The position numbers were made by a program, and so were the translations under genes. DNA of 64,000 bases from a virus: the IMG/VR virus record IMGVR_UViG_3300048011_000525, positions 32,001 through 96,000 of that record, one strand, 5' to 3'. This document shows, piece by piece, positions 6,099-40,901 of the stretch (the stretch's first letter is position 1; the number at the start of each line of letters is the position of its first letter). The notes beneath the pieces are model-generated. The model was not told where the DNA came from. It saw only the letters and a program-made list of their open reading frames with translations, and did not search any database.

Positions 6099-6869
6099 TT
6101 AATCCCTTCTTTCAATGTCTTCTTCATAACACTTTCCCCGTTGTATTTCAAGGATGTGTGCATTTTCTTTACCTGGATTGCTTGCTTTGTGCCAAACTTC
6201 TTTAGCAATGTTATAAGGTCTACTTTCAGGTTCTAATAGTATTGAACTTTGTACACTGTTCCATTCAGTGTCCATTTTTACTTTACCTTCTAGTACGGCC
6301 CATTGTTCTGAACGTTTAAAATGTTTTTGATCACTTAAACTTTTGCCAGGATAAATTACAAGTTCTTTTACTTTGTAACCTTTCTCAGGCTTGTCATCTA
6401 GCACACGCCAATAGCCCCAGTCACGTTCTGTCTTTTGCGTTTTCCACTCATCAAGTATCCAACTGCTACTGTTGGCTTTGTTACTGCCGCCTACGCCAAA
6501 TGCAAACTCGCACCAACGATAGCCACCGTATACTTCATATTCAGGAGTTGTTGTATTGGTTCGATCTCCGCCGTTTGCAAAGATCATAATGTCGTCACCT
6601 GAAATCATTGTTGCTACTTGGCCAATTGCTTTGTTTGCTGTGTTGTCTAGATCGTCAAATCCAATAACCTGATCAACTACTTCTAGTTCTTTTATAATAG
6701 CACAACGTTCTTCAAAAGACATAAATGGTCTGCCTTTTTTGCGTGTTAACCAGTCGTCGCTATTCACGCCAACAATAAGTTTGTTGCCGAGTTTTTTTGC
6801 TGCTTTAAAATAGGCAATATGCCCTGAATGGAGAGGATCAAACCCTCCGGTAACTAACACTACTTTCAT
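6099..6869 (-). CDS. HIGH-family cytidylyl/nucleotidyltransferase fused to a type II mannose-6-phosphate-isomerase-like cupin
   Basis: GGFDPLHSGH, GVNSD, FANGGDR, NSSSW; then RDWGYW, LSDQKHFKRSEQW, EIQRGKCYEEDIER. Confidence 0.8.
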   Translation of the reverse strand: MKVVLVTGGFDPLHSGHIAYFKAAKKLGNKLIVGVNSDDWLTRKKGRPFMSFEERCAIIKELEVVDQVIGFDDLDNTANKAIGQVATMISGDDIMIFANGGDRTNTTTPEYEVYGGYRWCEFAFGVGGSNKANSSSWILDEWKTQKTERDWGYWRVLDDKPEKGYKVKELVIYPGKSLSDQKHFKRSEQWAVLEGKVKMDTEWNSVQSSILLEPESRPYNIAKEVWHKASNPGKENAHILEIQRGKCYEEDIERRD

Positions 6870-27642: not shown

Positions 27643-29156
27643 TGGCTGAACACTTTTATGACGGACAAATAAGAAAATATCTCGTACAGATGATGCGGTT
27701 GTTTAGTAATTTTAGTTACCAAACAGGCGACGGTACTGAAAAACAAGTACCTGTTTTGTATGGAGACTTAACACGCCAAGTAGGAAGTATTTTAAGAGAC
27801 AATTCTGAAAATAAAATTCCAAGTGCTCCTCGCATGGCAGTTTATATTACAGGCTTAGAACTTGATAGAGATAGAACTAGTGATGCTAGTTATGTAAACA
27901 AGCGTCATGTAAGAGAACGTGCTAAAGATTCAAACGGTGATTATACCGATGAACAAGGACGTCAATATACAGTTGAGCGTTTAATGCCTACACCATATAA
28001 ACTAACTATAAATGTTGACATATGGAGTACAAATACAGATATGAAACTACAGATTATGGAGCAAATATTAATGCTGTTTAATCCTAGTTTAGACATCCAA
28101 ACCACAGACAACTATTTAGACTGGACAAGTTTAACAACAGTAATGCTAGACAGTGTAAACTTTAGCTCACGTTCAATTCCAGTTGGAGTCGATAGTGAAA
28201 TTGATGTAGGACAAATGACATTTAGCACACCAATTTATATTAGTCCTCCTGCTAAAGTTAAACGTCTTGGTGTTGTTACTAATATTGTTACTAGCATATT
28301 TGACGGTGACGGATATTATGACTTTGAAAAAATGCTTGAAGGTACTAACTTGTTTAGTATAGGCGGAGCAACTGCACCTTATGAAAAGGGTAGCGAGCAA
28401 AACGAAGTTGTTGATACAGGTGCCATGCCCAATGACGGTGATGGTGTTCTTACTCCTAGAAAACAAATTACAAGAACTGTTAAACCTATTATTAAAAATC
28501 CATTACAACATCGCATACTGATACTTAATGGACAAATTCAGTTGCTTGATAACGGCTTACCTAGCAACACTGCATGGTCTGAGTATTTTGAAGAAATTCA
28601 AGGTACTTATAAGCCGGGGTTAAGCATAATGTATTTTAGAAAGCCGGACATAAGCGGACTAGTTGCAGGACGTATTACAATCAATCCATTAGACGAAACT
28701 AAACTGTCAATTGCTTGGGATAGAGATACATTGCCAAGCAATGATACAATACAAGGCCCTGCTCGTAATGCTAATCAATATTCAAGTGTAGATTATATTG
28801 TAGATCCGTTGCGTTATGATCCGCAATCAGATACTTCAAAAGCAGGAGTACGATTGCTTATACTTGGTGCAATAGGTGATGCAGATAATGTAGATGGTGC
28901 TGATGCTTGGAAAAATACTGACAACACAGATTTTGTAGCAGGTGATAATGACATTATCGAATATGATGGCGCTAATTGGCATATTGTATTTGATGCAAGC
29001 AAAGACTACCTTCCGTACAATGACGAAACTATTACAACCTTATACACTACAAACTTAAATACCGGTGTACAATACTACTGGGATGGCGATCAGTGGTTAT
29101 TAAGCGTAGACGGCGAATATGCCAAAGGTGACTGGGTAATTGAGCTAGACGGCTAA
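27642..29156 (+). CDS. 15: Tail sheath stabiliser/terminator (gp15-like) with a C-terminal extension
   Basis: HFYDGQIRKY, VPVLYG, PRMA, PTPY, QIMEQILMLFNP. Confidence 0.85.
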   Translation: MAEHFYDGQIRKYLVQMMRLFSNFSYQTGDGTEKQVPVLYGDLTRQVGSILRDNSENKIPSAPRMAVYITGLELDRDRTSDASYVNKRHVRERAKDSNGDYTDEQGRQYTVERLMPTPYKLTINVDIWSTNTDMKLQIMEQILMLFNPSLDIQTTDNYLDWTSLTTVMLDSVNFSSRSIPVGVDSEIDVGQMTFSTPIYISPPAKVKRLGVVTNIVTSIFDGDGYYDFEKMLEGTNLFSIGGATAPYEKGSEQNEVVDTGAMPNDGDGVLTPRKQITRTVKPIIKNPLQHRILILNGQIQLLDNGLPSNTAWSEYFEEIQGTYKPGLSIMYFRKPDISGLVAGRITINPLDETKLSIAWDRDTLPSNDTIQGPARNANQYSSVDYIVDPLRYDPQSDTSKAGVRLLILGAIGDADNVDGADAWKNTDNTDFVAGDNDIIEYDGANWHIVFDASKDYLPYNDETITTLYTTNLNTGVQYYWDGDQWLLSVDGEYAKGDWVIELDG

Positions 29157-29164
29157 TTACTAGT

Positions 29165-29602
29165 ATGAACAAGATAGTTTGCAGTGGTGCTCTCTTTTAC
29201 GCACTCAATACAAAACGTTTTTTATTTTTACACAGAGCTGGCGGCAAGACTTCTGGCACTTGGGGACTTGTAGGTGGCGGCAACGAAGAAGGTGAAACAC
29301 CTTTTGAAGGACTTACACGTGAAATACAAGAAGAAGTAGGAAAACTACCTAAGTTTGTAAAAACAATACCTTTAGAAACGTTTGTATCAAATGATGAAAA
29401 GTTTAACTTTCACACATACCTTGTTGTAATAAAAGAAGAATTTTTACCTACACTAAATCATGAACACAACGGGTATGCTTGGACTACATTTGGTAATTGG
29501 CCTAAAACCCTACACCAGGGATTGCGCAACACACTACAAAATAAAACTAATCTTACAAAGTTAGAAACTGTATTTCAAGTAATAGACTTACTTGACAATT
29601 AA
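29165..29602 (+). CDS. NUDIX hydrolase
   Basis: Nudix box GGNEEGETPFEGLTREIQEEVG. Confidence 0.9.
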   Translation: MNKIVCSGALFYALNTKRFLFLHRAGGKTSGTWGLVGGGNEEGETPFEGLTREIQEEVGKLPKFVKTIPLETFVSNDEKFNFHTYLVVIKEEFLPTLNHEHNGYAWTTFGNWPKTLHQGLRNTLQNKTNLTKLETVFQVIDLLDN

Positions 29603-29620
29603 CTCAAAAGACTGTATAAT
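29592..29620 (+). promoter_or_regulatory. Perfect sigma70 promoter for the heptose operon
   Basis: TTGACA (29592-29597), 17 nt, TATAAT (29615-29620); ATG at 29627. Confidence 0.88.
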
Positions 29621-29626
29621 ATGAGT

Positions 29627-30763
29627 ATGAAAGTTTTAGTTCTCGGTGACATCATTGTCGACAAATATATCTACGGTACATCAACACGCATTAGCCCAGA
29701 AGCGCCAGTGCCTGTTGTAACATATCAGCGTGAAGTTGAGACTGTAGGTGGTGCCGGACTTGTTTACGAAAATCTTAAAAGTCTAGGTGTAGATGTTACT
29801 CTGTTTGTAATGCCTGGAAAGCCAAGCGTTAAAACACGAGTTATATGTGACGGACATTATATAACACGCATCGACAACGATGTACACACAAACGGATTAG
29901 ATGTATTAAAACGTGTATTAACTACCGACTTTACAGTATATGATTATGTTATTTTAAGTGATTACAATAAAGGTACACTAGACGAAAGTATTGAAATAAT
30001 CAAACACATTAATACATACGGATGTCGTATTATTGTTGATCCTAAAGAACACTCTAGTCACTATGAAGGTGCTTGGTTAGTAAAACCCAACGAAAAAGAA
30101 TTTCAAGAATACTTTATCAACTGGCACGGTAACATTATTACAACTAGAGCAGATAAAAGCGTTGTTGCTAACATTGACAATGAAGTATTTGAAATAGATG
30201 TGGAGCCGGTTGAGGTATCGGATGTAACAGGAGCAGGAGATTGTTTCTTAGCAGCATTTGTATATGGTCTTACTAAAGGTTATGATTACAAACATGCAAT
30301 TGAACTAGCAGTTAAAGGCTCTACAGAAAGTGTTAAGCATGTAGGCACATACACGCTACAACAGCGCGATTTAGAAGAAAGAGTAGTCTTTACTAATGGA
30401 GTATTTGATATACTGCACAAGGGTCATTTTGAGCTCTTAAAAGAAGCTAAATTTCTCGGTGCTAAACTAATTGTAGGTATTAATAGCGATGCTAGTGTAA
30501 AACGTCTTAAAGGCGAAACACGCCCAATTAATAATCAAATGAAGCGTATTAGTCAGTTAGAAATTTTACCGTGGGTAGATCAAGTAGTTGTATTTGATGA
30601 AGATACCCCATACGAATTAATTAAAAAAATTAAGCCGCATGTAATAGTTAAGGGCGGCGACTATACAGTAGAAACCGTAGTAGGACACGATTTAGCCGAG
30701 GTGCATCTTGTACCTACTGTTGAAGGCTACAGCACTACAGAAATTATAGAGGCAAGCAAATGA
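29627..30763 (+). CDS. hldE: Bifunctional heptose-7-phosphate kinase / heptose-1-phosphate adenylyltransferase (compact HldE)
   Basis: RISPEAPVPV, LSDYNKG, DVTGAGD (PfkB); TNGVFDILHKGH, VKGGDY, GYSTT. Confidence 0.92.
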   Translation: MKVLVLGDIIVDKYIYGTSTRISPEAPVPVVTYQREVETVGGAGLVYENLKSLGVDVTLFVMPGKPSVKTRVICDGHYITRIDNDVHTNGLDVLKRVLTTDFTVYDYVILSDYNKGTLDESIEIIKHINTYGCRIIVDPKEHSSHYEGAWLVKPNEKEFQEYFINWHGNIITTRADKSVVANIDNEVFEIDVEPVEVSDVTGAGDCFLAAFVYGLTKGYDYKHAIELAVKGSTESVKHVGTYTLQQRDLEERVVFTNGVFDILHKGHFELLKEAKFLGAKLIVGINSDASVKRLKGETRPINNQMKRISQLEILPWVDQVVVFDEDTPYELIKKIKPHVIVKGGDYTVETVVGHDLAEVHLVPTVEGYSTTEIIEASK

Positions 30764-31578
30764 AAATTTTAATTACTGGCCATAAAGGATTTATTGGACA
30801 AAATCTAACCCTGTTCTTACAAAACGAACACGAACTATTTGGATACGAATGGCAAGAAGATAGCTTACCAGAAGTTGAAGGTTTTGATTGGGTTATACAT
30901 ACTGGAGCGATTAGCAGCACTACAGAAACAGATGTAGATAAAGTAATGTTGCAAAATTACGAGTTTAGTAAATGGTTATATAACGAATGTAATACTAAAG
31001 GTGTTAATTTGCAATATGCATCAAGTGCAAGTGTTTACGGAACAAATACAGAGTTTAGCGAAGATGCTCCTAAACAGCCACAGAGCCCTTATGCTTGGAG
31101 CAAGTATTTGTTTGATCGCTGGGTTTGGGGTTTAAGTTCTCATAATATTATTGTACAAGGTTTCCGTTACTTTAATGTATACGGTCCATTTGAGGATCAT
31201 AAAGGTAATCAGGCAAGTCCAGTTACTAAGTTTACTGAACAAGCAATTAAGACTGGTAGAATAAAACTATTTGAAAACAGTGATAAGTACTTACGTGATT
31301 TTATATTTGTAGGCGATGTGTGCGAAGCACATAAACAATTGTTAGAAAATAAAACAGCAGGTCTGTATAATATAGGTACTGGTAACACAACTAGTTTTAA
31401 AGAAGTAGCAGAAGTAATTGCTAAAAAATATAATGCTGAAATTACAGAAATACCAATGCCAAAAAACTTAAAAGGACAATATCAAGAATATACTTGTGCA
31501 GACACAAATAAATTAAGTACAGTAACAGATATTGATTTTGCAACAGTAAAGGAGTATGTAAATGAGTCAACCAACTAG
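30760..31578 (+). CDS. hldD: ADP-L-glycero-D-manno-heptose 6-epimerase
   Basis: TGHKGFIG, GAISSTTE, YASSASVYG, YAWSK, FRYFNVYGP.EDHKG.QAS, YQEYTCAD. Confidence 0.88.
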   Translation: MKILITGHKGFIGQNLTLFLQNEHELFGYEWQEDSLPEVEGFDWVIHTGAISSTTETDVDKVMLQNYEFSKWLYNECNTKGVNLQYASSASVYGTNTEFSEDAPKQPQSPYAWSKYLFDRWVWGLSSHNIIVQGFRYFNVYGPFEDHKGNQASPVTKFTEQAIKTGRIKLFENSDKYLRDFIFVGDVCEAHKQLLENKTAGLYNIGTGNTTSFKEVAEVIAKKYNAEITEIPMPKNLKGQYQEYTCADTNKLSTVTDIDFATVKEYVNESTN

Positions 31579-31981
31579 AAAAACAGGCGTAGATCAAAAA
31601 GGCTGGGGATACGAGATGATTTGGGCTACTAACGACAAATACTGTGGCAAGATTATGGCCTTTACTAGAGAAGGTGCAACAACAAGTATGCACTTCCACA
31701 GAGAAAAAGACGAAACTTGGTTTGTTAATAACGGACGGTTTAAAGTGCGATATATTGATACATCTAATAGTATGTTGTACGAAAGAGATTTAAAAGAAGG
31801 TGATGTATGGCATAATCCGCCATTGCAGCCGCATCAATTAGTCTGTCTTTCTAAAGAAGGTAGTATTACAGAAGTAAGTACACCCGACAGTGTTGAAGAT
31901 AACTTCCGTATTGGCCCTGGAGACAGTCAAATAGCCGAAAAAACTCAAGACCAATTGCAAACTCAAACAACAGGAAAGTAA
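31562..31981 (+). CDS. Cupin sugar isomerase-like protein (lyxose/mannose ketol-isomerase type)
   Basis: KGWGYE, YCGK, SMHFHREKDETW, PHQ, EVSTPDSVEDNFR. Confidence 0.7.
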   Translation: MSQPTRKTGVDQKGWGYEMIWATNDKYCGKIMAFTREGATTSMHFHREKDETWFVNNGRFKVRYIDTSNSMLYERDLKEGDVWHNPPLQPHQLVCLSKEGSITEVSTPDSVEDNFRIGPGDSQIAEKTQDQLQTQTTGK

Positions 31982-31984
31982 CAA

Positions 31985-32608
31985 ATGACATTTGAAGAAA
32001 ATGTTATAGAACTTCCATTCCTGTCAGAAGACGAATGTAAAGACATAGCAGAGTGGGCATTTGATTTTGAGCAGCAGCTTATTAATGCAGGGTATGGCGA
32101 TAACAAACCTTCACCAGAGCACTTTGATAATGTAACAACTTCAAATTATCAAAACTATAACTTTTTTAATTATTTTCCAGAATTAGCTGATAGATTAGTA
32201 GAATGTTTGTTCCACGTAAACAAAGATTTAGAGTGGCCAATTATATGTCAAGCATGGATAAACATCTATAGAAAAGGTCAAGGAATAAATTGGCATAACC
32301 ATCAAGGTCGAATGGGTAAAAGTTTTAGTTGTAATGTGTTTATTGCAGGCGATACTACTCCCGGAATAACATATAAACCGTTTGGTGAGAAAGGTATGGT
32401 ACGAGAAAATAAAGTAGGATATTTACACTTGTTCCCTTGTGAACTATTTCATTATGTTCCGCCTATCGAAACAGACACTCCTAGAATTACATTAGGAATG
32501 ACAGTGCATAGTAGCTCGGATATAAATATTAACATTATGAACCAATTAGCATTTAATAGTAAAATGCCTCAAGATTCAGTAATACTTACTAAGGATCATT
32601 ATGAGTAA
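31985..32608 (+). CDS. 2OG-Fe(II) oxygenase-like protein
   Basis: WINIY, WHNH, LFP, FHYV, RIT. Confidence 0.75.
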   Translation: MTFEENVIELPFLSEDECKDIAEWAFDFEQQLINAGYGDNKPSPEHFDNVTTSNYQNYNFFNYFPELADRLVECLFHVNKDLEWPIICQAWINIYRKGQGINWHNHQGRMGKSFSCNVFIAGDTTPGITYKPFGEKGMVRENKVGYLHLFPCELFHYVPPIETDTPRITLGMTVHSSSDININIMNQLAFNSKMPQDSVILTKDHYE

Positions 32609-32945
32609 AGAAATTCTACCAAAAGTTAGATGTAGTCATATATTGCTAAGTTATGACAAAGCAATTGAATCAACACATACTAGAGAGTTGTATTACGCAA
32701 TATGGGACGCTAAACAAATAATTGCAGAGTTAAAAGGCGGTGGAGTTTCCTGGGCATCTGCTGTTAAAGAACACAGCGCATGTCCACATAGCTGGTATAG
32801 AGATGGTGATTTAGGATGGTTTGATCTAAATGATGGAGTTGTACCGGAACTATATCTTTCAGTCAGAGCAGCGCCAAAAGATCAATTATTAGAAGAACCG
32901 ATACAAACTCCGTATGGTATTCATATCATAGTACGAACTGGTTAG
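32601..32945 (+). CDS. Parvulin-type peptidyl-prolyl cis-trans isomerase
   Basis: VRCSHILL, HSACP, GDLGWF, PIQTPYGIHII. Confidence 0.88.
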   Translation: MSKEILPKVRCSHILLSYDKAIESTHTRELYYAIWDAKQIIAELKGGGVSWASAVKEHSACPHSWYRDGDLGWFDLNDGVVPELYLSVRAAPKDQLLEEPIQTPYGIHIIVRTG

Positions 32946-33287: not shown

Positions 33288-33845
33288 CTATATATTTTCT
33301 GCAAATTCTTGCAGTGAATCAAAAACGTATGTTGTACGCTTAATGCTTTTATATGTATATTTATCTAAGTCTCTTTCTGTTTGCTCTCCATAACCTGTTC
33401 TCACTAGTACAGGTCGAGCTCCTACTTTTGATGCTGCTTTCAAGTCTTTCATCTTATCACCTACATAAAAACTATTTTTCCAATTTAAACCAGAAATCTG
33501 TTGTTGACTCATCTTAAACATACCAGTATTTGGTTTGGCATACAAATCTTTCTTATTACTGCTTTCGCTGTAATAAATCCCGTCAATATCAGTACACCCG
33601 GCTTGACCAAGTAAGTTTAACATATGTTCGTGTATATTGTCAACATCATCGGCTGTCATTATACCTTTTTCTATTCCGCCTTGATTAGTAATAATAACAA
33701 TTCTGTAACCTTTTCTTCTTAGTTCTGCCATAGCTTCCAAACTGCCTGGAATAGGCTCAAAGTCCTTAGGATGCGTAACATATGTACCTAAGTCTCTATT
33801 AATTACTCCGTCTCTGTCCAAACCTATAAAGATTTCTTTACTCAT
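33288..33845 (-). CDS. gmhB: D,D-heptose-1,7-bisphosphate phosphatase (HAD IIIA)
   Basis: LDRDGVIN, ITNQGGI, KPNTGM, VGDKMKD, LVRTGYG. Confidence 0.85.
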   Translation of the reverse strand: MSKEIFIGLDRDGVINRDLGTYVTHPKDFEPIPGSLEAMAELRRKGYRIVIITNQGGIEKGIMTADDVDNIHEHMLNLLGQAGCTDIDGIYYSESSNKKDLYAKPNTGMFKMSQQQISGLNWKNSFYVGDKMKDLKAASKVGARPVLVRTGYGEQTERDLDKYTYKSIKRTTYVFDSLQEFAENI

Positions 33846-34419
33846 CGTATGTGTACCAGCCAGTGATAATATATTTGTAGCCTTTATAAATTGGATTACC
33901 TCTATGCGGATATATAAAGTTAGTAGGAAAAAATACTACTTTGCCTTGTTCTGGTTTAAGTTTTACACCTTGGTATAAGAATTCAGTTTCGCCGCCTTCT
34001 TCAATATCGTTCAAGTAAAGCATATAATTAATAACTCTAGTGCTACTGCTTTGGTCAGATGCCTCTGCATGCCAAGCGTGATAGCCTTCGTGTGGGCCTG
34101 TTCTTTGAAGGCTCATTCCTTTCGGGCTATGTTGTGCTCCGTGCTTTAACATAGAATATTTTTCAACATACTGATTTAAATATAGATCATTAATTTTTTC
34201 ATAAAAATGATCGCAAAGATTGTAGTCGTAGTGATATACTTTTTGAGTATGTGCCCAGTCAAACACAATTCGGTTATCTGTTACAAATCCGTGTCCTCTA
34301 TTATTAGGCTTAACAACATCTCTGCGAGCCATTACTTCAAAATGCTTAATAATTTCTTCGCAATACTCTGGTTCAAATGCGTTAGGATATTCTTCAATTC
34401 CTGAATAAGTGTTAGTCAT
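33838..34419 (-). CDS. 2OG-Fe(II) oxygenase, prolyl-4-hydroxylase-like
   Basis: YHAWHAE, YLNDIEEGGETEF, HRGNP, KYIITGW. Confidence 0.88.
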   Translation of the reverse strand: MTNTYSGIEEYPNAFEPEYCEEIIKHFEVMARRDVVKPNNRGHGFVTDNRIVFDWAHTQKVYHYDYNLCDHFYEKINDLYLNQYVEKYSMLKHGAQHSPKGMSLQRTGPHEGYHAWHAEASDQSSSTRVINYMLYLNDIEEGGETEFLYQGVKLKPEQGKVVFFPTNFIYPHRGNPIYKGYKYIITGWYTYDE

Positions 34420-35225
34420 TTGTTCTCCTTTAAAAACGGTATGTAATCTTTTGCGATGAGACCGTGTATATAGTAATTATAGTGTTCGCCGTCTAAAGTT
34501 TCGCAATCAAGACTTTTATCGGTTTTATGTTGTAAAAAGTTTATTGCATCAACTTTTGAAAATGTAGTTTGTGTCAAATTAGTATAAAATCCATCAACAC
34601 TATTTGGTATAAAACATCTATCATTAATGTTCCAGACATACAATGGTATGTCTTTATCTCGACATAGCATGTCCATAAATGTTATATCTTTGATATAATC
34701 TTGTTGCTCTAAATGCGTTTGACTATAGTGATACATTCTTAAATACATATAAGACAATCGCCTTACATCTGGCTCTGCTTCAAACGGAATAGCATTTATG
34801 TAAGGAAATGCTTTATAATCAAAAGGTTCTGGTTTTAAATACTGTTCTAAGTATGTTTTATTTTGACACAGTCCTAAACTATATCGAGTTAGCTCATCTG
34901 TTTGCAAATCATTTTCTATAAAAAAATCTAACGGCAATATTTCTTTTTCATTTAGTGTTGGATTAATGGCTACTGGAAATCTACTCCAGTAAGTAGACTG
35001 TACAAATACTTCTTCAATGTCATCGTGTTGCTTTAGTGCATGTGCTAAAAAGTTAGGATATGCTCTATTAGCAGTTCCGCCGCTTGCCATTACTATTACA
35101 GATTTATTGTTTTCCTTGCCATATATTTCAGCATAATTATTATCTTGCCAAATTTTTGCACCTTCTGTTTTATGACCATAATACCCCATTGTATGACTAC
35201 AACCGATAAAAAGTGTTTTACCCAT
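34416..35225 (-). CDS. SGNH/GDSL-like protein
   Basis: LFIGCSHT block I, GGTAN block II, DGEHY block V. Confidence 0.55.
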   Translation of the reverse strand: MGKTLFIGCSHTMGYYGHKTEGAKIWQDNNYAEIYGKENNKSVIVMASGGTANRAYPNFLAHALKQHDDIEEVFVQSTYWSRFPVAINPTLNEKEILPLDFFIENDLQTDELTRYSLGLCQNKTYLEQYLKPEPFDYKAFPYINAIPFEAEPDVRRLSYMYLRMYHYSQTHLEQQDYIKDITFMDMLCRDKDIPLYVWNINDRCFIPNSVDGFYTNLTQTTFSKVDAINFLQHKTDKSLDCETLDGEHYNYYIHGLIAKDYIPFLKENK

Positions 35226-35769
35226 TCCAGGTTACCTCGAAGTCAAATACCATTACTCTACGTTCGTCTATTGTAGGATACGCTCCGTGCCAAATTTGAG
35301 AATCCATAATTAAAAGTTTTCCTTGTTTTGGTTGCCACCATTCAACATGTGTCTCTCCAAGTTTATCTTGTAATATGGCATAAAATGCGCCTTCGTCATT
35401 TGGCTGATCTTCTATGTCGTCAAAATATAATACTGCGGTACATCCTGTGTTACCCTTTGCATGATTATGCAACCCTTTCCATCCACCAGGATAATATTTA
35501 ATGCTCCAAGTTTGTATATGCTGTTGTAGCTTGCATAAAACGTTGCCGTCTTGTAATACACTATTTGTTTTTTCTATAATAAAGTCGGCAATTCCTTTAG
35601 TTTCAGCAAGTGTGTGCGGAATTTGGTATCCGTTAACTGTAGTACTTTTTCCTGGCTCTACCAAGTTAGGATGATCAGCGTCAAATAAATGTTCATATTC
35701 TTTCCACATTGGTGCGTGTGTTTCTACAATCCATTGATTATTTGCAATATATAATATATCATCCATCAT
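35218..35769 (-). CDS. 2OG-Fe(II) oxygenase-like protein
   Basis: LHNH, AVLY, WHGAYP, RRVMVFD. Confidence 0.75.
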   Translation of the reverse strand: MMDDILYIANNQWIVETHAPMWKEYEHLFDADHPNLVEPGKSTTVNGYQIPHTLAETKGIADFIIEKTNSVLQDGNVLCKLQQHIQTWSIKYYPGGWKGLHNHAKGNTGCTAVLYFDDIEDQPNDEGAFYAILQDKLGETHVEWWQPKQGKLLIMDSQIWHGAYPTIDERRVMVFDFEVTWNG

Positions 35770-36364
35770 TTTGTGCCGGTGTTATTACAAAGTTTGCTGC
35801 AATACTTGCTCTTAATTTATCTGACTTATTAGGTAAGACATAATGAGAAATCCAGCTAGGGAATAAAATTAATGTTCCCCGCTCCATTTGAGGAGTAATG
35901 TGCTGATAGTTGTATGCATTAAAAATTCTATCTAGTCCAGAACCCCTAACCATTTGAAAGTTAGGACATTCAAATACAATTTGTCCGCCGGCATCCTCTT
36001 CATTGGGATATTCTAACAAATATATTAGACTTAGTCCTCTTCCTGGAAATGCATGGTCATGCGGTTCTTGATAATCAGTTTTATTATATACGTTTAGCCA
36101 ATGTTCATCGCACATGATATTATAAGAAACTTGAGGTTCTAACGATTCTAAAAAGCTATTTACATGTGGTTCAACAGTCTTAAAGAAAGAATCCCACGGC
36201 AATGAATCATTTTTGTTACTTCTAATACTAGTTTTAGCTTGCGCCATTGACCAGTCACTTTTCATAACCATTTCAGAGTCGTCAAAGTATGGTGCCCATT
36301 CTTTTAGCATTTCGTCGCAGTTGTCAAGTTTGGCTGAATAAAAGTGTGTTCCCCATATGTGCAT
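35759..36364 (-). CDS. 2OG-Fe(II) oxygenase-like protein (TIGR02466 type)
   Basis: WLNVY, QEPHDH, LFPSWISHYV, RASIAANF. Confidence 0.82.
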   Translation of the reverse strand: MHIWGTHFYSAKLDNCDEMLKEWAPYFDDSEMVMKSDWSMAQAKTSIRSNKNDSLPWDSFFKTVEPHVNSFLESLEPQVSYNIMCDEHWLNVYNKTDYQEPHDHAFPGRGLSLIYLLEYPNEEDAGGQIVFECPNFQMVRGSGLDRIFNAYNYQHITPQMERGTLILFPSWISHYVLPNKSDKLRASIAANFVITPAQNDG

Positions 36365-36867
36365 TATATCATTCCTTGTATAGTCGATTCTGCATTAAAA
36401 AAGAATACTTGTGTTAGCCTTCCGGTTTCTGGAGAGTTACCAAATCCCGGGACCATGCTAGAGTGATTAATATTTCCTTTGTATAATATCAGTCTATTAT
36501 AAACATTACTAATAGTTGTAATTGGATTGTTATCTTCGTCGTATAGTGCAGTACCTGAATCTAACATTGCATTAGGAGTAAGGTATAATACTCCTGCCCA
36601 GTCGCAACCGTCTTTATGAATCCAGGTCTTGGCGCCTTCGTATACTAACTGAAAACAAAAACTGTCGTACACAAATTCTTTTACTCTTACATTTAAAATT
36701 TCAGTAATTCGTTGTTGAAAAAATTGTTGATAGTTACCGTCTGCTGCATCGCTGCGCATACCTGGATATTCGCCTTCGTGTTCGTGAAACGGTAGTTGTA
36801 TAACCTGTTCTCTTACTAGATCAGGATTAGGTAGAAAGTCGTCAATTATTACAGTAGTTGTATCCAT
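36364..36867 (-). CDS. 2OG-Fe(II) oxygenase-like protein (DUF6445 type)
   Basis: IIDDFLPNPD, YPGMRS, IHKD, AGVLYL, YNRLILY, HS, RLTQVFF. Confidence 0.8.
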   Translation of the reverse strand: MDTTTVIIDDFLPNPDLVREQVIQLPFHEHEGEYPGMRSDAADGNYQQFFQQRITEILNVRVKEFVYDSFCFQLVYEGAKTWIHKDGCDWAGVLYLTPNAMLDSGTALYDEDNNPITTISNVYNRLILYKGNINHSSMVPGFGNSPETGRLTQVFFFNAESTIQGMI

Positions 36868-37385
36868 TACATAAAATCCATATAAATATTTCCAGAAATA
36901 GTTGTTCCTTCATTTCCGGGCCTAACAAAGTGTTCGATAAAACTAGGAAAGAATATAATATCTCCTTTTTTGCATTCAGGTCTAAAATCTAACGGAAACT
37001 CACTTACATTTGTTCCAAATTGATTTTGTACATCTTTAAATATTGGGCTCATAAATACGGTCTTTGAAGAATCAACTGTTTCGTATATTACAAAACTCCA
37101 ACTTGATCTAGGATGAATGTGAATATCTTGCCAATCGTTTTTATCGTATTTGTTCCTCCAAATCTCACCAAATCTAGGATTATTTCCAATTAAATCTGGT
37201 CCTAAATTTTTAGAAACAACTTCAATAAGGTATTCGTAAGTGGAATCGGGTATGTTGTGTTGCTGCCCTAATGTTGAATTCGTTTCACTTAGCCATATTT
37301 TTTCATACGGTGCTTCGCCAATATCTATTTTACTTAAATCCACGCTGTCTATAAAAAACGGTACATGAAACATATTGTACTTCAT
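36867..37385 (-). CDS. 2OG-Fe(II) oxygenase-like protein lacking the usual C-terminal Arg
   Basis: WRNKY, QDIHIH, FFPSFIEHFV, GTTISGN. Confidence 0.75.
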   Translation of the reverse strand: MKYNMFHVPFFIDSVDLSKIDIGEAPYEKIWLSETNSTLGQQHNIPDSTYEYLIEVVSKNLGPDLIGNNPRFGEIWRNKYDKNDWQDIHIHPRSSWSFVIYETVDSSKTVFMSPIFKDVQNQFGTNVSEFPLDFRPECKKGDIIFFPSFIEHFVRPGNEGTTISGNIYMDFM

Positions 37386-37403
37386 TATTATGTCCTTTGT
37401 ATA

Positions 37404-38039
37404 TTATTTAAAGGGTGTTGGCGGCAAAGGTACTGCTCGCATAGCCTTATAAACTAACGTAGCACGTAGTCCTTTATAGTTTTCATTAGGCGGAAGACCA
37501 TGATGAGGAATATTTCCTTTAAACAAAAATATTCTTCCAGGTTTAGGGTAAACTTTTTCCCATTTGCCATTAAGTTTAATAACTGTTTCGCCGGCCCACT
37601 CTTCTTTCCATTCTCGGTTTACGTAATAAATCCAACTAATACCGTTGTCGCACTGACAATCAGTATGTTCAATAGTATTGTGTATCCACTGTTGTCCATT
37701 AACAAGTATTTCACCAACTTCAAGTTCAAATGGTATTAGTTGTGCAACGGCATTGTACACCATGTTCCATGCACTATCATGTGCATTAGGACTATTAGGA
37801 GGATAAATTTGTTGCTTAAATGCAGGAACTTCTGGCCAGTTTGGATCTGCTCCTATATCGTACTTAGGGTCTTCGGGATAGTTGCTAGTATGGCCATAAG
37901 TCCAGCTATACGACTTAAATACTAAGTCATGTATATGCTCTATCATCCAGTTAGGAAAAAGATCATCAATAACAATCATTTGATCTTTTGCTAAATCATA
38001 ATCGTATAAGTTGTCTTTTATTTCGCCGTTTACAATCAT
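37404..38039 (-). CDS. 2OG-Fe(II) oxygenase
   Basis: VNGQ, HTD, YVNREW, GET, PKPGR, PHHG, RATLVYK. Confidence 0.85.
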   Translation of the reverse strand: MIVNGEIKDNLYDYDLAKDQMIVIDDLFPNWMIEHIHDLVFKSYSWTYGHTSNYPEDPKYDIGADPNWPEVPAFKQQIYPPNSPNAHDSAWNMVYNAVAQLIPFELEVGEILVNGQQWIHNTIEHTDCQCDNGISWIYYVNREWKEEWAGETVIKLNGKWEKVYPKPGRIFLFKGNIPHHGLPPNENYKGLRATLVYKAMRAVPLPPTPFK

Positions 38040-39856
38040 GTATTTTCAACTTTCAATATCTTTTTGTGCTCTGGCAAATATACATACTCAATGTCGCTAT
38101 TTGCAAGAGTGCGCAATGCATCGTCTAGTGTTTCAACTAATGGCTCACCGCCTAAGTTAAAACTAGTATTAAAAATAATCGGAACGCCTGTCTGATTATA
38201 GAACTCGTTAATTACTGCATAATAATTTTCATTTTGTTCTTCTTTAACTGTCTGAATACGACAAGTACCGTCTACATGGATAATACTAGGAATCTTTTCA
38301 GCAACACCTTCTTGACAATTCATAGCATACATCATGTGTGGGGATTCTTCTAATCCTCGCATATCAAACCATTCGTGTGCGTGTTCTGCGAGAATTGATC
38401 CTGCAAACGGACGGAAGTATTCTCTACGTTTTACCTGGTTAACAAAGTCTTTTCCGTCTTCCATTGTTGGGTCAAACATCAAACTTCTGTTACCTAATGC
38501 TCTAGGACCTGCTTCCGATCTTCCTTGAAACATTGCAACAATGTTTCGGTCTCGAATTAATGATACAACATCTTTATGATCTGCTTCACTAATAGTTGCA
38601 TTATACTTTTTAGCAACTTCATTAATATCGTCAGTTGTATATTCTTTTGGCGGACCTAAATATAAACTTTCTCCAAATGGTTTAGTTTCGCTATCTCTTG
38701 ACGATTGATGCCAGGCGAGCATTGCTGCTCCAAGTGCTGTGCCTGCATCGGAACTAATAGGTTCTACATATAAATTAATTCCATACTTATTAAGCTCGTC
38801 GAGATAATGATAGTTTGCTACACAGTTAAGCCCGTATCCGCCTGACAAAACAATATTCTTTTTGCCAGTCATTTCGTGTGCTTTTAAAATTAATTTTAAA
38901 ATTTGCGCTTGACTTTCTTGCTGCAACGCATATGCTAAGTCTCTTCTGTTTTCTAATTTAGTTACATCATTGAGAGATCCGTCTTCATTATGGTATTCAG
39001 CAGGGGTATACAAATACTCATAAAACCCTTCGTTAATTATAGAACTGTTTGGATATGTAGGTATTACTAAATGCCTATTGGCTACAGTCCAATCGCCGCC
39101 TGCTTCAACATACAATGGTGGAATTTTATCATTAGGTTTACCGTATGGTGAAAGTCCCATTGTTTTACCAGCTTCAATTGCCTGAAAGCCGCAATAGTTA
39201 GTTACTGCTTCGTACACTTTGGTTATGCCTGCTCCGTCGTCAATAACACACTCGTGTGTACCGTATTCGTCAAATCTATCACTAGGCATGTCTTTAGTAT
39301 ATGACGATCTAAATGGACCGTTACCTCCAAGATGTTTCCACAATGTTTTTATATCAAATGGATAGTCACAATCAAATATTGTTTCTAGTTCAAATAACAT
39401 TTCTGTTTTTCCTGGTTCTATTTCAGCAGGAATAAATGTGCCGGCTCCGTCTACAATAACTGCGGCTGCTGAATCAAATCCCGAACGATAAAACGCACAC
39501 GCTGCATGTAGTTTGTGATGTACATGTGCTAAGTCAACTACCTGAGGGTGATTATAAATATCAATTTTAGGGCTATTATCAATTAATCCAAGTTTCCGTG
39601 CAAGGCCAGTATACACATCGTCGCCAGTAAAGTCAACACGTCCGGCTGTTTCAGCAAGTGGTTGCGTATGTGCAATAACAAGATAATCTAATTTATCAGT
39701 GTATTCTAAAATCTTAACCATTCCTGCAAAAGGGCCACCGTCGTATTTTTGACGACTTAGTCTTTCTTCTTCAACTGAAAATACAATTTCGCCGTCCTTA
39801 AGAAGACATACTGCACCGTTATGTCCTCGTGTTATTGCTGCTATCCATTTAGCCAT
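38036..39856 (-). CDS. O-carbamoyltransferase (NodU/CmcH/TobZ family)
   Basis: GHNGA, EEERLSRQK, HHKLHA, IVDGAG, GKTMGLSPYG, SGGYGLNCVAN, EAGPRALGNRS, FRPFA, NTSFN. Confidence 0.93.
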   Translation of the reverse strand: MAKWIAAITRGHNGAVCLLKDGEIVFSVEEERLSRQKYDGGPFAGMVKILEYTDKLDYLVIAHTQPLAETAGRVDFTGDDVYTGLARKLGLIDNSPKIDIYNHPQVVDLAHVHHKLHAACAFYRSGFDSAAAVIVDGAGTFIPAEIEPGKTEMLFELETIFDCDYPFDIKTLWKHLGGNGPFRSSYTKDMPSDRFDEYGTHECVIDDGAGITKVYEAVTNYCGFQAIEAGKTMGLSPYGKPNDKIPPLYVEAGGDWTVANRHLVIPTYPNSSIINEGFYEYLYTPAEYHNEDGSLNDVTKLENRRDLAYALQQESQAQILKLILKAHEMTGKKNIVLSGGYGLNCVANYHYLDELNKYGINLYVEPISSDAGTALGAAMLAWHQSSRDSETKPFGESLYLGPPKEYTTDDINEVAKKYNATISEADHKDVVSLIRDRNIVAMFQGRSEAGPRALGNRSLMFDPTMEDGKDFVNQVKRREYFRPFAGSILAEHAHEWFDMRGLEESPHMMYAMNCQEGVAEKIPSIIHVDGTCRIQTVKEEQNENYYAVINEFYNQTGVPIIFNTSFNLGGEPLVETLDDALRTLANSDIEYVYLPEHKKILKVENT

Positions 39857-39857
39857 A

Positions 39858-40901
39858 TTATTTTTCTCCGATGCGTTTAATAGTAGTGTTTCCAGGAATA
39901 AGTTTAGGCTTATTTGATTTTTTAGCTTCTAAGGCTGGAGACTTTAATGGTTGAGGTTTATTTGTAGGTCCAAGACGTGTTCTTACACTTTTTAAAATAC
40001 TATCAATTTGTTTTTGATCAAGTTCCATAACTTCGTCATTTAATCGATCTTGTTCTTCTTCCATCGTAATTCTAATCGGTGAATAGACACGTTTCCCTTC
40101 GCCTACATCAATTATATCAAAGTTTGTATCATCTACATAAGAAATATTAACAGGATAAGTTGATCCAGTCACGATAGTAGCTGTCTTTCCTAGTGCTTTT
40201 ACAATATGTTGACCTACACTATCACAACCTAAAAAGTGATCTGCTACGTCAATAATTCCGGCCCAAACACGCATATCTGGAATTTCTGGCTGTGCAACTG
40301 GAAACTTTGTATTAGGATTGTCATCTACTACTACAGGATGTTCACTCATAATAATGACACCGTATTCTTTTTTAAGTTCATTAATGATATCAATGATATT
40401 ATTTAATTGGAAACTTCTTGAGGTTGTGTCTACTAAAAACTCTCCAATACTTTCTACAGTCCTTCCAAAAGGCTGTACTACCAAAACTTTGTCAAATCCA
40501 GTTACTGTTTTAACTTCTTCAACAACATTAGCCGCACTTACAATTTCTTGTTTATTTAAAGCTAAAGTTGGCTTATCTAAAGATCTTACGCCTTTATTGT
40601 TGATTTCAATATCAAACGCTTGTGACAAGCTACACTGTTGATTGTAGTATTCCCAAATTCTATAAGGTTCTGGACTTATGCAGTTTCGATCTTTAATTTT
40701 TTCTTCAAACAAACCTTTATGCCAATTATCGTATGCTCGCTTAGATAGTGTCGGATGGCCTTTAAAAAAGTCAGTTCCTCCTTCACATACAATAATAAAA
40801 TCGTTATTTGGATTTTCCTTTTCAAATAATTCAAATGCAGGAATACTGGCAATTACTCTCCCTGCTCCGCCGTTAATAAAAAATGCTGTTGATCTTGACA
40901 A
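39858..40901 (-). CDS. GT9-like (heptosyltransferase-type) GT-B glycosyltransferase; TTG start
   Basis: INGGAGRVIASIPA near the N-terminus, VVQPFG, FLGCDSVGQHIVKALG; AGGAG SD. Confidence 0.65.
   Translation of the reverse strand: MSRSTAFFINGGAGRVIASIPAFELFEKENPNNDFIIVCEGGTDFFKGHPTLSKRAYDNWHKGLFEEKIKDRNCISPEPYRIWEYYNQQCSLSQAFDIEINNKGVRSLDKPTLALNKQEIVSAANVVEEVKTVTGFDKVLVVQPFGRTVESIGEFLVDTTSRSFQLNNIIDIINELKKEYGVIIMSEHPVVVDDNPNTKFPVAQPEIPDMRVWAGIIDVADHFLGCDSVGQHIVKALGKTATIVTGSTYPVNISYVDDTNFDIIDVGEGKRVYSPIRITMEEEQDRLNDEVMELDQKQIDSILKSVRTRLGPTNKPQPLKSPALEAKKSNKPKLIPGNTTIKRIGEK

What the first reader, a model, noticed from the sequence alone, without database searches (positions are those of the whole stretch)
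31562..31981. Cupin as a candidate non-orthologous replacement for GmhA
Seen: HldE, HldD and GmhB are present, but no SIS-fold GmhA occurs in the window; a metal-binding cupin (HFH..KDE..H) overlaps the end of hldD. Known: GmhA converts sedoheptulose-7-P (a ketose) to a manno-configured aldose, the same chemistry that cupin phosphomannose and lyxose isomerases perform. Inference: a new type of sedoheptulose-7-phosphate isomerase.
Basis: inference. Interest (0 to 1): 0.7.

Follow-up and report, generated by a model that had tools for sequence, protein, structure and literature searches.

The report
Phage cupin in the GmhA slot
A large marine phage carries every gene for making the activated sugar ADP-heptose except the usual first enzyme (GmhA), and a small metal-binding cupin that always travels with these genes is the best candidate for that missing step, though this is untested and has credible rivals.

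Summary
ORF 31562-31981 (+) encodes a 139-aa cupin with a complete metal motif (H44, H46, E51, H91). It overlaps the stop of an HldD-like gene by 17 nt. It sits in a block NUDIX / HldE / HldD / cupin ... GmhB.

No SIS-fold GmhA was found:
- in the 115-kb phage record (about 33% of the genome);
- in 50 related viral fragments;
- in 10 of 11 complete cyanomyophages that carry a homologous cupin.

Evidence for the isomerase reading:
- The cupin keeps company with two unrelated heptose activation routes (PfkB + cytidylyltransferase, or HddA + HddC).
- It is found fused to the kinase, the phosphatase, the nucleotidyltransferase and a GT9 heptosyltransferase domain.
- Many family members weakly match type II phosphomannose and D-lyxose isomerase models.

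Evidence against:
- Exclusivity with GmhA is not strict. One cyanophage and several MAGs have both.
- The best structural match is the CapF epimerase cupin.
- A large cellular clade sits next to GDP-mannose 4,6-dehydratase.
- The same window holds a second, bona fide PMI-type cupin fused to a nucleotidyltransferase (6099-6869).

Verdict: a probable (about 50%) non-homologous sedoheptulose-7-phosphate isomerase. There is no experiment and I found no paper on it. This scan reached the same reading earlier on related phage DNA.

The parts
29165..29602 (+). NUDIX hydrolase, first gene of the conserved block
   Evidence: Pfam NUDIX E 2e-13. Present directly upstream of HldE in every one of the 80 related viral loci whose fetched stretch reaches that far.
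29621..30763 (+). HldE-like bifunctional heptose-7-P kinase / heptose-1-P adenylyltransferase (380 aa, kinase domain shortened)
   Evidence: PfkB + CTP_transf_like. NF008454 HldE E 7e-85, TIGR02198 179 bits, TIGR02199 168 bits, all below the curated cut-offs. It holds the only PfkB domain in the 115-kb record.
30760..31578 (+). HldD-like ADP-heptose 6-epimerase (272 aa)
   Evidence: TIGR02197 at 241 bits against a cut-off of 275. The top four PDB hits are all HldD (1eq2 E 2e-48), with the next SDRs at about 1e-18. TGHKGFIG and YAWSK motifs are present.
31550..31554 (+). Shine-Dalgarno-like AGGAG, 7 nt before the cupin ATG and inside the end of hldD
   Evidence: Read directly from the sequence.
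31562..31981 (+). The cupin (P0001, 139 aa). Metal ligands H44, H46, E51, H91. Family-invariant K13, E18, Y27, K30, K49, E104, D113, R116.
31985..32608 (+). 2OG-Fe(II) oxygenase, inserted here relative to most relatives
   Evidence: PF13759 E 9e-7. No match was found in any of the related loci, where GmhB usually follows the cupin directly.
32601..32945 (+). Parvulin-type PPIase, also an insertion
   Evidence: Rotamase E 1e-9. Not found in the related loci.
33288..33845 (-). GmhB-like HAD-IIIA heptose-1,7-bisphosphate phosphatase, inverted in this window
   Evidence: NF006506 E 4e-43 (147 bits against a cut-off of 178) and TIGR00213 at 92 bits. In most relatives it lies directly downstream of the cupin on the same strand.
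38036..39856 (-). NodU/NolO-type carbamoyltransferase that co-travels with the heptose genes in this clade and in cyanophages
   Evidence: Carbam_trans_C E 3e-58. 48% identical to P-SSM2 gp308. Present in many related loci.
6099..6869 (-). Second candidate in the same window: a 256-aa fusion of a cytidylyltransferase-like nucleotidyltransferase (residues 1-128) and a type II PMI-type cupin (C-terminus)
   Evidence: PF01050 at 65.7 bits, over its cut-off. PF01467 at 59.7 bits. PDB hits to cytidylyltransferases. Only weakly related to the P0001 family (hhalign probability 58%).

Best explanation
The cupin is a metal-dependent aldose-ketose isomerase of the phosphomannose / D-lyxose isomerase kind. 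[quoted passage not shown]

Proposed mechanism (inferred):
- A divalent metal held by H44, H46, E51 and H91 binds O1 and O2 of the open-chain sugar.
- A carboxylate (E104 or E51), helped by K49, moves the proton between C1 and C2 through a cis-enediolate.
- Conserved K13, K30 and R116 hold the phosphate.

The product would then pass through the phage's own enzymes: HldE kinase domain, GmhB, HldE adenylyltransferase domain and HldD. This gives ADP-L-glycero-beta-D-manno-heptose for phage-directed glycosylation.

Shown: gene content, synteny, fusions, fold and conserved residues. Inferred: substrate, reaction and residue roles.
For: 1. Pathway hole. HldE, HldD and GmhB homologues are present, and no SIS or GmhA match is found in the record.

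2. Synteny. NUDIX-HldE-HldD-cupin(-GmhB) is conserved in every one of the 80 related viral loci that extends far enough. No SIS_2 hit occurs in 50 of their records, which together span roughly 210 kb around the locus.

3. Independent lineage. Cupins 31-40% identical sit in the heptose clusters of 11 complete Kyanoviridae genomes. Ten of these have no SIS hit and none has a PF01050 protein. Marine Synechococcus hosts WH8102 and CC9311 have no heptose in their LPS (PMC4515613), so the phage pathway should be self-contained.

4. Two activation routes. The cupin accompanies both the PfkB + cytidylyltransferase route and, in Bellamy and SynMITS9220M01, the HddA-like GHMP kinase (279-287 bits) with an HddC-like transferase. 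What these routes share is the first step.

5. Fusions. The cupin is found fused with:
- a small HAD (P0135, P0157, P0204);
- a GmhB-type HAD + NT (P0290, P0292);
- an NT (P0215, P0257, P0272-P0278);
- PfkB (P0293, P0294);
- PfkB + NT (P0282, P0288, P0289);
- NTP_transferase (P0295);
- a GT9 heptosyltransferase domain (L131).
No SDR fusion was seen. The known precedent for a cupin-NT fusion is the bifunctional type II PMI/GMP enzyme (own knowledge), where the cupin is the entry isomerase.

6. A cluster without an SDR. In Sf-CH8 no SDR or dehydratase was detected to make a keto-sugar for an epimerase, although two ORFs there are unannotated.

8. Small genomes. 10 of 14 MAGs with cupin + kinase/NT have no GmhA-like gene. 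In Saccharimonadia, 4 HldE-kinase genomes have the cupin only, 7 GmhA only, 2 both and 2 neither.
Against: - There is no biochemical or genetic test anywhere, and no paper was found.
- P0001 itself does not reach PF01050 or PF07385, even at E 10.
- Cupin and a GmhA-like SIS gene occur together in SynMITS9220M01, in L111 (one operon) and in L176.
- The Saccharimonadia complementarity is not significant (p 0.12).
- The largest cellular clade sits next to GDP-mannose 4,6-dehydratase, not heptose genes. All clades share the same invariant residues, so they may share a function that is not specific to sedoheptulose-7-P.
- The same phage has an NT-PMI-cupin fusion that could be the isomerase instead.
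- The genome is only one-third sampled.
Confidence: 0.5

Rival explanations
1. The cupin is a CapF/WbuC-type metal-dependent epimerase, or another tailoring enzyme, that acts on the nucleotide sugar after activation. It could, for instance, work with the adjacent HldD-like SDR to make an unusual ADP-heptose epimer. The isomerase step would then come from the host or from another gene.
For: - P0001 hits PF14667 (CapF C-terminal domain by my recollection of InterPro; the tool labels it Polysacc_synt_C) at 23.9 bits and TIGR04366 WbuC at 23.7 bits, both below cut-off. 24 of 66 family members hit PF14667.
- The gene follows and overlaps an SDR gene, the same order as the SDR-cupin domains of CapF.
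- A 35-row cellular clade lies directly upstream of GDP-mannose 4,6-dehydratase. Other members lie beside SDRs or a UDP-GlcNAc 2-epimerase, as in WbuC loci.
- The huge phage LR756511 has HldE with neither cupin nor SIS, so a phage need not encode its own isomerase.
Against: - No SDR-cupin fusion appears among 175 longer or representative homologues. Fusions to kinase, phosphatase and NT are many.
- The Sf-CH8 and S-T4 clusters show no detected SDR near the cupin.
- The HldD reaction releases no keto intermediate for a second enzyme (established HldD mechanism, own knowledge).
- This reading leaves 10 complete cyanophage pathways without any isomerase, in hosts whose LPS lacks heptose.
Confidence: 0.2
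2. The cupin is a general phosphomannose-type isomerase (fructose-6-P to mannose-6-P). It is either not specific for heptose or feeds a hexose through the same kinase/phosphatase/transferase logic. The Gmd-linked cellular relatives would be stand-alone type II PMI domains.
For: - JGI names many close homologues 'mannose-6-phosphate isomerase-like protein (cupin superfamily)'.
- 29 of 66 members hit PF01050.
- The Gmd-linked clade shares all invariant residues with the phage clades.
- Small single-domain cupin PMIs exist (PDB 7zvy).
Against: - The partners in this operon are heptose-specific by homology. HldD is clearly separated from other SDRs, GmhB is present, and HddA/HddC occur in Bellamy.
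- A 6-epimerase has no role on a hexose.
- One member is fused to a GT9 heptosyltransferase domain.
Confidence: 0.12
3. The missing isomerase of this phage is something else: the NT-PMI-cupin fusion at 6099-6869, a gmhA in the unsampled two-thirds of the genome, or the host's GmhA. P0001 would then have an unrelated role such as an oxygenase or a non-catalytic sugar-binding protein.
For: - A bona fide PF01050 cupin fused to a cytidylyltransferase-like NT lies 25 kb away in the same window.
- Two further small cupins lie just upstream of the window.
- The record is about 33% complete.
- RefSeq calls the cyanophage homologues 'cysteine dioxygenase'.
- The block is full of 2OG-Fe(II) oxygenases.
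Against: - The cyanophages have no PF01050 protein, yet they keep the operon cupin.
- The strict synteny and the fusions tie P0001 itself to the pathway.
- No family member matched a cysteine dioxygenase model at E 0.01.
- The 3-His-1-Glu site with a conserved K-x-E and acidic residues is typical of cupin isomerases rather than of the 3-His cysteine dioxygenase site (own knowledge).
Confidence: 0.15

Closest known systems
GmhA (LpcA), sedoheptulose-7-phosphate isomerase, SIS fold (TIGR00441, PF13580)
   Same: It has the proposed reaction and the place in the pathway: the first step before the HldE or HddA kinase. In SynMITS9220M01, L111 and several Saccharimonadia genomes, a SIS GmhA sits next to a heptose kinase just as the cupin does elsewhere.
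   Different: The fold is unrelated: Rossmann-like SIS against a beta-barrel cupin. There is no sequence similarity. The two are not strictly exclusive.
Type II phosphomannose isomerase cupin domain (PF01050; C-terminal domain of bifunctional PMI/GMP enzymes such as AlgA, XanB, ManC) and the stand-alone archaeal PMI (PDB 7zvy)
   Same: - Small metal cupin, with an N-terminal W-G-x-[YE] strand and an acidic C-terminal tail (E..D..R).
- It yields a manno-configured aldose phosphate from a ketose phosphate.
- It occurs fused to a nucleotidyltransferase.
   Different: - P0001 itself does not match PF01050.
- It has HxH where PMI has QxH (own knowledge of the PMI motif).
- Its partners are heptose enzymes.
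- The fused NT is cytidylyltransferase-like rather than NTP_transferase in most cases.
D-lyxose/D-mannose isomerase (PF07385; PDB 7nzo, 3kmh, 2y0o)
   Same: - The model superposes at rmsd 1.4 A over 104 residues on 7nzo, and is 24% identical over 119 residues to 3kmh.
- A profile of the family hits 2y0o at E 5e-5 over the C-terminal strand region.
- 29 of 66 members hit the Pfam model.
- The K / HxH / KxE / H / E(+13) pattern is parallel.
   Different: Lyxose isomerases are 170-225 aa with extra helices and act on unphosphorylated sugars. P0001 does not reach the model. Residue equivalence was not verified by a residue-level superposition.
CapF C-terminal cupin domain / WbuC family (PF14667, TIGR04366)
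   Different: CapF acts on a UDP-4-keto-6-deoxy sugar and is fused to an SDR. No SDR fusion is seen in this family, and its fusions are to kinase, phosphatase and NT.

Membership tests
Cupin superfamily (metal-binding) | Motif 1 G-x5-H-x-H-x3,4-E-x6-G and motif 2 G-x5-P-x-G-x2-H; double-stranded beta-helix fold | tested here: met
GmhA / SIS sedoheptulose-7-P isomerase | SIS fold; match to TIGR00441 or PF13580 | tested here: not met
   No SIS or TIGR00441 match anywhere in the record, including this ORF. The ORF is a cupin. Only functional analogy is proposed.
Type II PMI cupin domain (PF01050) | Match to PF01050 above its gathering score | tested here: inconclusive
   P0001 is not reported even at E 10 or 0.01. 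However, 29 of 66 family members match at E <= 0.01, best 3e-6, and the fused homologue P0143 scores 31 bits against a cut-off of 23.6.
D-lyxose isomerase (PF07385) | Match to PF07385; active-site set K, H, H, K, E, H, E, D around Mn | tested here: inconclusive
CapF_C / WbuC cupin | Match to PF14667 or TIGR04366 above cut-off; association or fusion with an SDR reductase acting on a 4-keto sugar nucleotide | tested here: inconclusive
RmlC-like sugar-nucleotide 3,5-epimerase | Match to the dTDP-sugar isomerase model; metal-free His/Tyr active site | tested here: not met
   No such family appears among the Pfam hits of any of the 66 members at E 0.01. A full metal-ligand set is conserved.
Cysteine dioxygenase (the RefSeq name of the cyanophage homologues) | Match to a cysteine dioxygenase model; 3-His iron site | tested here: not met
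   No cysteine dioxygenase family appears among the Pfam or NCBIfam hits of P0001, P-SSM2 gp312 or the 66 members. The site is 3-His-1-Glu.
ADP-heptose pathway operon (context) | HldE (kinase + adenylyltransferase), GmhB and HldD present and linked | tested here: met
   All scores are below the NCBIfam equivalog cut-offs, so these are homologues, not certified equivalogs. Synteny holds in 80 related loci.

The most novel reading that the evidence does not exclude
A widespread family of small metal cupins is a second, non-homologous sedoheptulose-7-phosphate isomerase. It is abundant in marine myophages and is also found in CPR bacteria, DPANN and other archaea. It would make nucleotide-heptose synthesis independent of GmhA, letting phages build heptose glycans in hosts that make none.
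Probability: 0.45. Interest if true: 0.75.

Novelty: new variant of a known kind. Interest (0 to 1): 0.6.

Why it matters
GmhA is treated as the universal entry to bacterial heptose synthesis. It is used as a marker of the pathway and as a target for antibiotic adjuvants. A non-homologous replacement would have several consequences:
- Heptose pathways are being missed in annotation. The cyanophage genes are currently named 'cysteine dioxygenase' or 'nucleotidyltransferase', while a small phosphatase carries the name 'phosphoheptose isomerase'.
- It would explain how cyanophages can run a heptose pathway in hosts whose LPS has no heptose.
- It would add a new substrate class to the cupin sugar isomerases.

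The claim can be tested directly with one cloned gene.

Tried and rejected
The 350-kb contigs that hold close homologues could therefore not be examined.
- Long metagenome contigs found by the search for related loci (up to 326 kb) are not held for whole-record search.
I fell back on the literature and on the Synechococcus elongatus control, which does not ring for TIGR00441.
- Alignment-based scans of genome contigs failed for lack of a conserved stretch. A hand-made degenerate pattern for KGWGxE-x8-YCGK worked instead, and all 80 loci returned encode family members.
- A PDB search with only the C-terminal half of P0001, meant to obtain a residue-level alignment to lyxose isomerase, gave nothing useful. 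Active-site equivalence therefore rests on motif order and spacing only.
There is no Pfam hit, no relevant NCBIfam hit and no PDB sequence hit.
- The 'phosphoheptose isomerase' annotated beside the cupin in P-SSM2 and other cyanophages was checked as a possible GmhA and rejected. It is a 100-115-aa HAD phosphatase (DxDxT; PDB 9iqw and 1xpj; TIGR01689).
- Literature searches for a cupin sedoheptulose-7-P isomerase or for phage heptose pathways with cupins found nothing relevant.
- The Atlas search gave only viral cupin clusters.

Full report
**What the window is**

The window is bases 32001-96000 of a 115,582-bp IMG/VR virus record that CheckV rates about 33% complete. The genome is therefore roughly 350 kb. 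A T4 gp15-like tail sheath stabiliser, a tail assembly chaperone and ORFs of 4021 and more than 1761 aa mark it as a large T4-like myophage.

**The observation**

ORF 31562-31981 (+) gives a 139-aa protein, P0001.
- AGGAG lies 7 nt before its ATG.
- The ORF overlaps the stop of the preceding gene by 17 nt.
- Both cupin motifs are complete, with H44, H46, E51 and H91 as the expected metal ligands.
- Cupin_2 passes its cut-off, and AlphaFold2 gives a confident barrel with pLDDT 94.

The genes around it:
- a NUDIX hydrolase (29165-29602);
- an HldE-like kinase/adenylyltransferase (29621-30763);
- an HldD-like epimerase (30760-31578). Its four best PDB matches are all ADP-heptose 6-epimerases at E 2e-48, thirty orders better than other SDRs;
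- a 2OG oxygenase and a parvulin;
- on the other strand, a GmhB-like phosphatase (33288-33845).

No SIS or GmhA model matches anywhere in the record.

**How conserved the arrangement is**

A scan of IMG/VR found 582 viral stretches encoding relatives. In the best 80 (71-89% identity), the order NUDIX-HldE-HldD-cupin is kept wherever the fetched stretch reaches those genes. GmhB usually follows directly on the same strand. In this window the oxygenase, the parvulin and a 111-aa ORF are inserted and gmhB is inverted. None of 50 of those records has a SIS_2 match. If they are collinear, they cover about 210 kb around the locus. This is one clade, so it counts as one evolutionary observation.

**An independent lineage: cyanomyophages**

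Cupins 31-40% identical to P0001 occur in cultured cyanomyophages of at least eight genera. In each they lie within a sugar cluster that contains a cytidylyltransferase-like NT, a PfkB kinase, a 100-115-aa HAD and usually an HldD-like SDR.

The neighbouring gene annotated 'phosphoheptose isomerase' is not a GmhA. It is a small HAD phosphatase.

In Bellamy and SynMITS9220M01 the cupin sits instead between an HddA-like GHMP heptose-7-P kinase (279-287 bits) and an HddC-like transferase. These are the enzymes of the GDP-heptose route. The cupin therefore accompanies two non-homologous activation systems whose common requirement is heptose-7-P.

Of 11 complete cyanophage genomes, ten have no SIS match and none has a PF01050 protein. 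The LPS of the host strains WH8102 and CC9311 contains no heptose (PMC4515613).

**Fusions**

Among cluster representatives and longer homologues, the cupin is fused to:
- the small HAD;
- a GmhB-type HAD plus NT;
- the NT alone (many clusters, some seen on 16-28 contigs);
- PfkB;
- PfkB plus NT;
- an NTP_transferase;
- in a planctomycete MAG, a GT9 heptosyltransferase domain.

No SDR fusion was seen. These fusions place the protein in the heptose activation module. They do not by themselves fix its position in the pathway. The only characterised precedent for a cupin-NT fusion that I know of is the type II PMI/GMP enzyme, where the cupin is the entry isomerase (own knowledge).

**What the protein resembles**

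Sequence searches of PDB give only generic metal cupins, plus D-lyxose isomerases with a family profile.

Scanning 66 diverse family members one by one gives Lyx_isomer in 29, MannoseP_isomer in 29 and PF14667 in 24. PF14667 is, by my recollection, the CapF C-terminal domain.

Across all clades the same residues are invariant: K13, W15, G16, E18, Y27, K30, H44, H46, K49, E51, H91, E104, S106, D113 and R116. Their order, and the H-to-E spacing of 13, parallels the substrate-contacting set K62, H75, H77, K86, E88, H143 and E156 of the lyxose isomerase. I could not check this by residue-level superposition.

**Evidence that cuts the other way**

1. Exclusivity with GmhA is loose.
   - SynMITS9220M01 has, 6 kb from the cupin, a second GHMP kinase next to a divergent SIS protein (TIGR00441 at 47 bits against a cut-off of 209).
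   - Locus L111 has PfkB-NT-cupin-HddA-SIS-HAD-SDR in one run.
   - 4 of 14 MAGs with cupin + kinase/NT have a GmhA-like gene.
   - In 151 Saccharimonadia genomes, the 15 with an HldE-type kinase split into 4 cupin only, 7 GmhA only, 2 both and 2 neither (one-sided Fisher p 0.12).

2. A degenerate-pattern scan of species genomes returned 80 loci, all true family members. In 29 of them a GDP-mannose 4,6-dehydratase gene lies near the cupin (directly downstream on the same strand in 24), and most of these cupins fall in one 35-row clade. Others lie beside SDRs, a UDP-GlcNAc 2-epimerase or a radical SAM gene. Several of those genomes have GmhA elsewhere. The family as a whole is therefore not tied to heptose. 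With an identical active site in all clades, a shared function such as PMI-like isomerisation or CapF/WbuC-like epimerisation must be considered.

3. The window's cupin groups (99% SH-aLRT, quick tree) with CPR cupins that are kinase/NT-linked, not with the Gmd-linked clade.

4. The same window holds a 256-aa fusion of a cytidylyltransferase-like NT with a bona fide PF01050 cupin at 6099-6869. Two more small cupins lie just upstream of the window. The huge phage LR756511 has HldE with neither cupin nor SIS.

**Weighing**

The isomerase reading explains the most:
- the pathway hole in ten complete cyanophage genomes;
- the association with two unrelated activation routes;
- the fusions;
- the cluster with no SDR detected (Sf-CH8);
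- the family's leaning towards manno-type cupin isomerases.

The heptose identity of the pathway rests on the HldD, GmhB, HddA/HddC and GT9 links. I put the isomerase reading at about 0.5, the CapF/WbuC-like tailoring role at 0.2, an unspecific PMI at 0.12, and 'isomerase supplied elsewhere, other role' at 0.15.

**Prior knowledge**

No paper describing a cupin sedoheptulose-7-P isomerase was found. Notes of this scan show that the same reading was reached on related phage DNA by two earlier follow-ups. I treated those notes as leads.

- the GDP-type route association;
- the misannotated HAD;
- the wider fusion catalogue;
- the Gmd-linked cellular clade;
- the cases of co-occurrence with SIS;
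- the Saccharimonadia contingency table;
- the second PMI-type cupin in the window.

Noticed in passing
window 6099-6869 (-): A 256-aa fusion of a cytidylyltransferase-like nucleotidyltransferase (residues 1-128) with a type II PMI-type cupin (PF01050 at 65.7 bits). Its motif reads Q-K-H-F-K-R-S-E-Q-W. It is the only other CTP_transf_like domain in the record and has no kinase beside it.
   Followed up: partly
G000 record 29608-29970 (-) and 29062-29265 (-), just upstream of the window: Two further small cupins. The first (120 aa) is 29% identical to P0001 over 58 residues and has a PMI-like DDIVR tail. Both give weak PF01050 hits (17.5 and 21.9 bits).
   Followed up: partly
L001 8735-9079, L089 7020-7331 and 8661-8990, and equivalents in L083-L095: The cyanophage genes named 'phosphoheptose isomerase' in RefSeq and GenBank are 100-115-aa HAD phosphatases (DxDxT; TIGR01689; PDB 9iqw, 1xpj), not GmhA. 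The adjacent cupin is named 'cysteine dioxygenase' or 'putative nucleotidyltransferase'. Both names look wrong.
   Followed up: yes
L090 12556-14324 (Synechococcus phage SynMITS9220M01): A second heptose module consisting of a divergent HddA-like kinase, a divergent GmhA-like SIS protein (168 aa) and a small HAD, 6 kb from the kinase-cupin-transferase module.
   Followed up: partly
window 33838-38039 (-): A run of 2OG-Fe(II) oxygenase-like genes: five match 2OG-Fe(II) oxygenase Pfam models and one matches DUF6445. One unassigned 269-aa ORF lies among them, and all sit between gmhB and the carbamoyltransferase. One more oxygenase lies at 31985-32608.
   Followed up: no
L098-L177 (for example L148 3126-4673, L168 96-2402): In Binataceae and related MAGs, the cupin sits in a conserved trio of GT4-family initiating glycosyltransferase (about 618 aa), cupin and GDP-mannose 4,6-dehydratase (338 aa).
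   Followed up: partly
L131 2747-4510: A Phycisphaerales MAG has a 587-aa reading frame that joins the cupin to a GT9 heptosyltransferase domain (PF01075 E 2e-20). The locus is GC-rich, so the gene model is not certain.
   Followed up: no
L092 4902-6047 and L089 1-231: A 'transketolase central region' gene lies directly upstream of the heptose kinase in P-TIM68 and S-SM2. Transketolase makes sedoheptulose-7-P.
   Followed up: no
L087 (uncultured huge phage LR756511, 595 kb): It encodes a fused HldE (32% identical) but neither a SIS protein nor a cupin of this family.
   Followed up: partly
window 46538-58603 (-) and 58639-63924 (-): Two giant ORFs (4021 aa and at least 1761 aa) lie downstream of the fibre and chaperone region.
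   Followed up: no
window 39858-40901 (-): A 347-aa protein, 44% identical to P-SSM2 gp307, that always accompanies the carbamoyltransferase. It has no Pfam, informative NCBIfam or PDB sequence match.
   Followed up: partly
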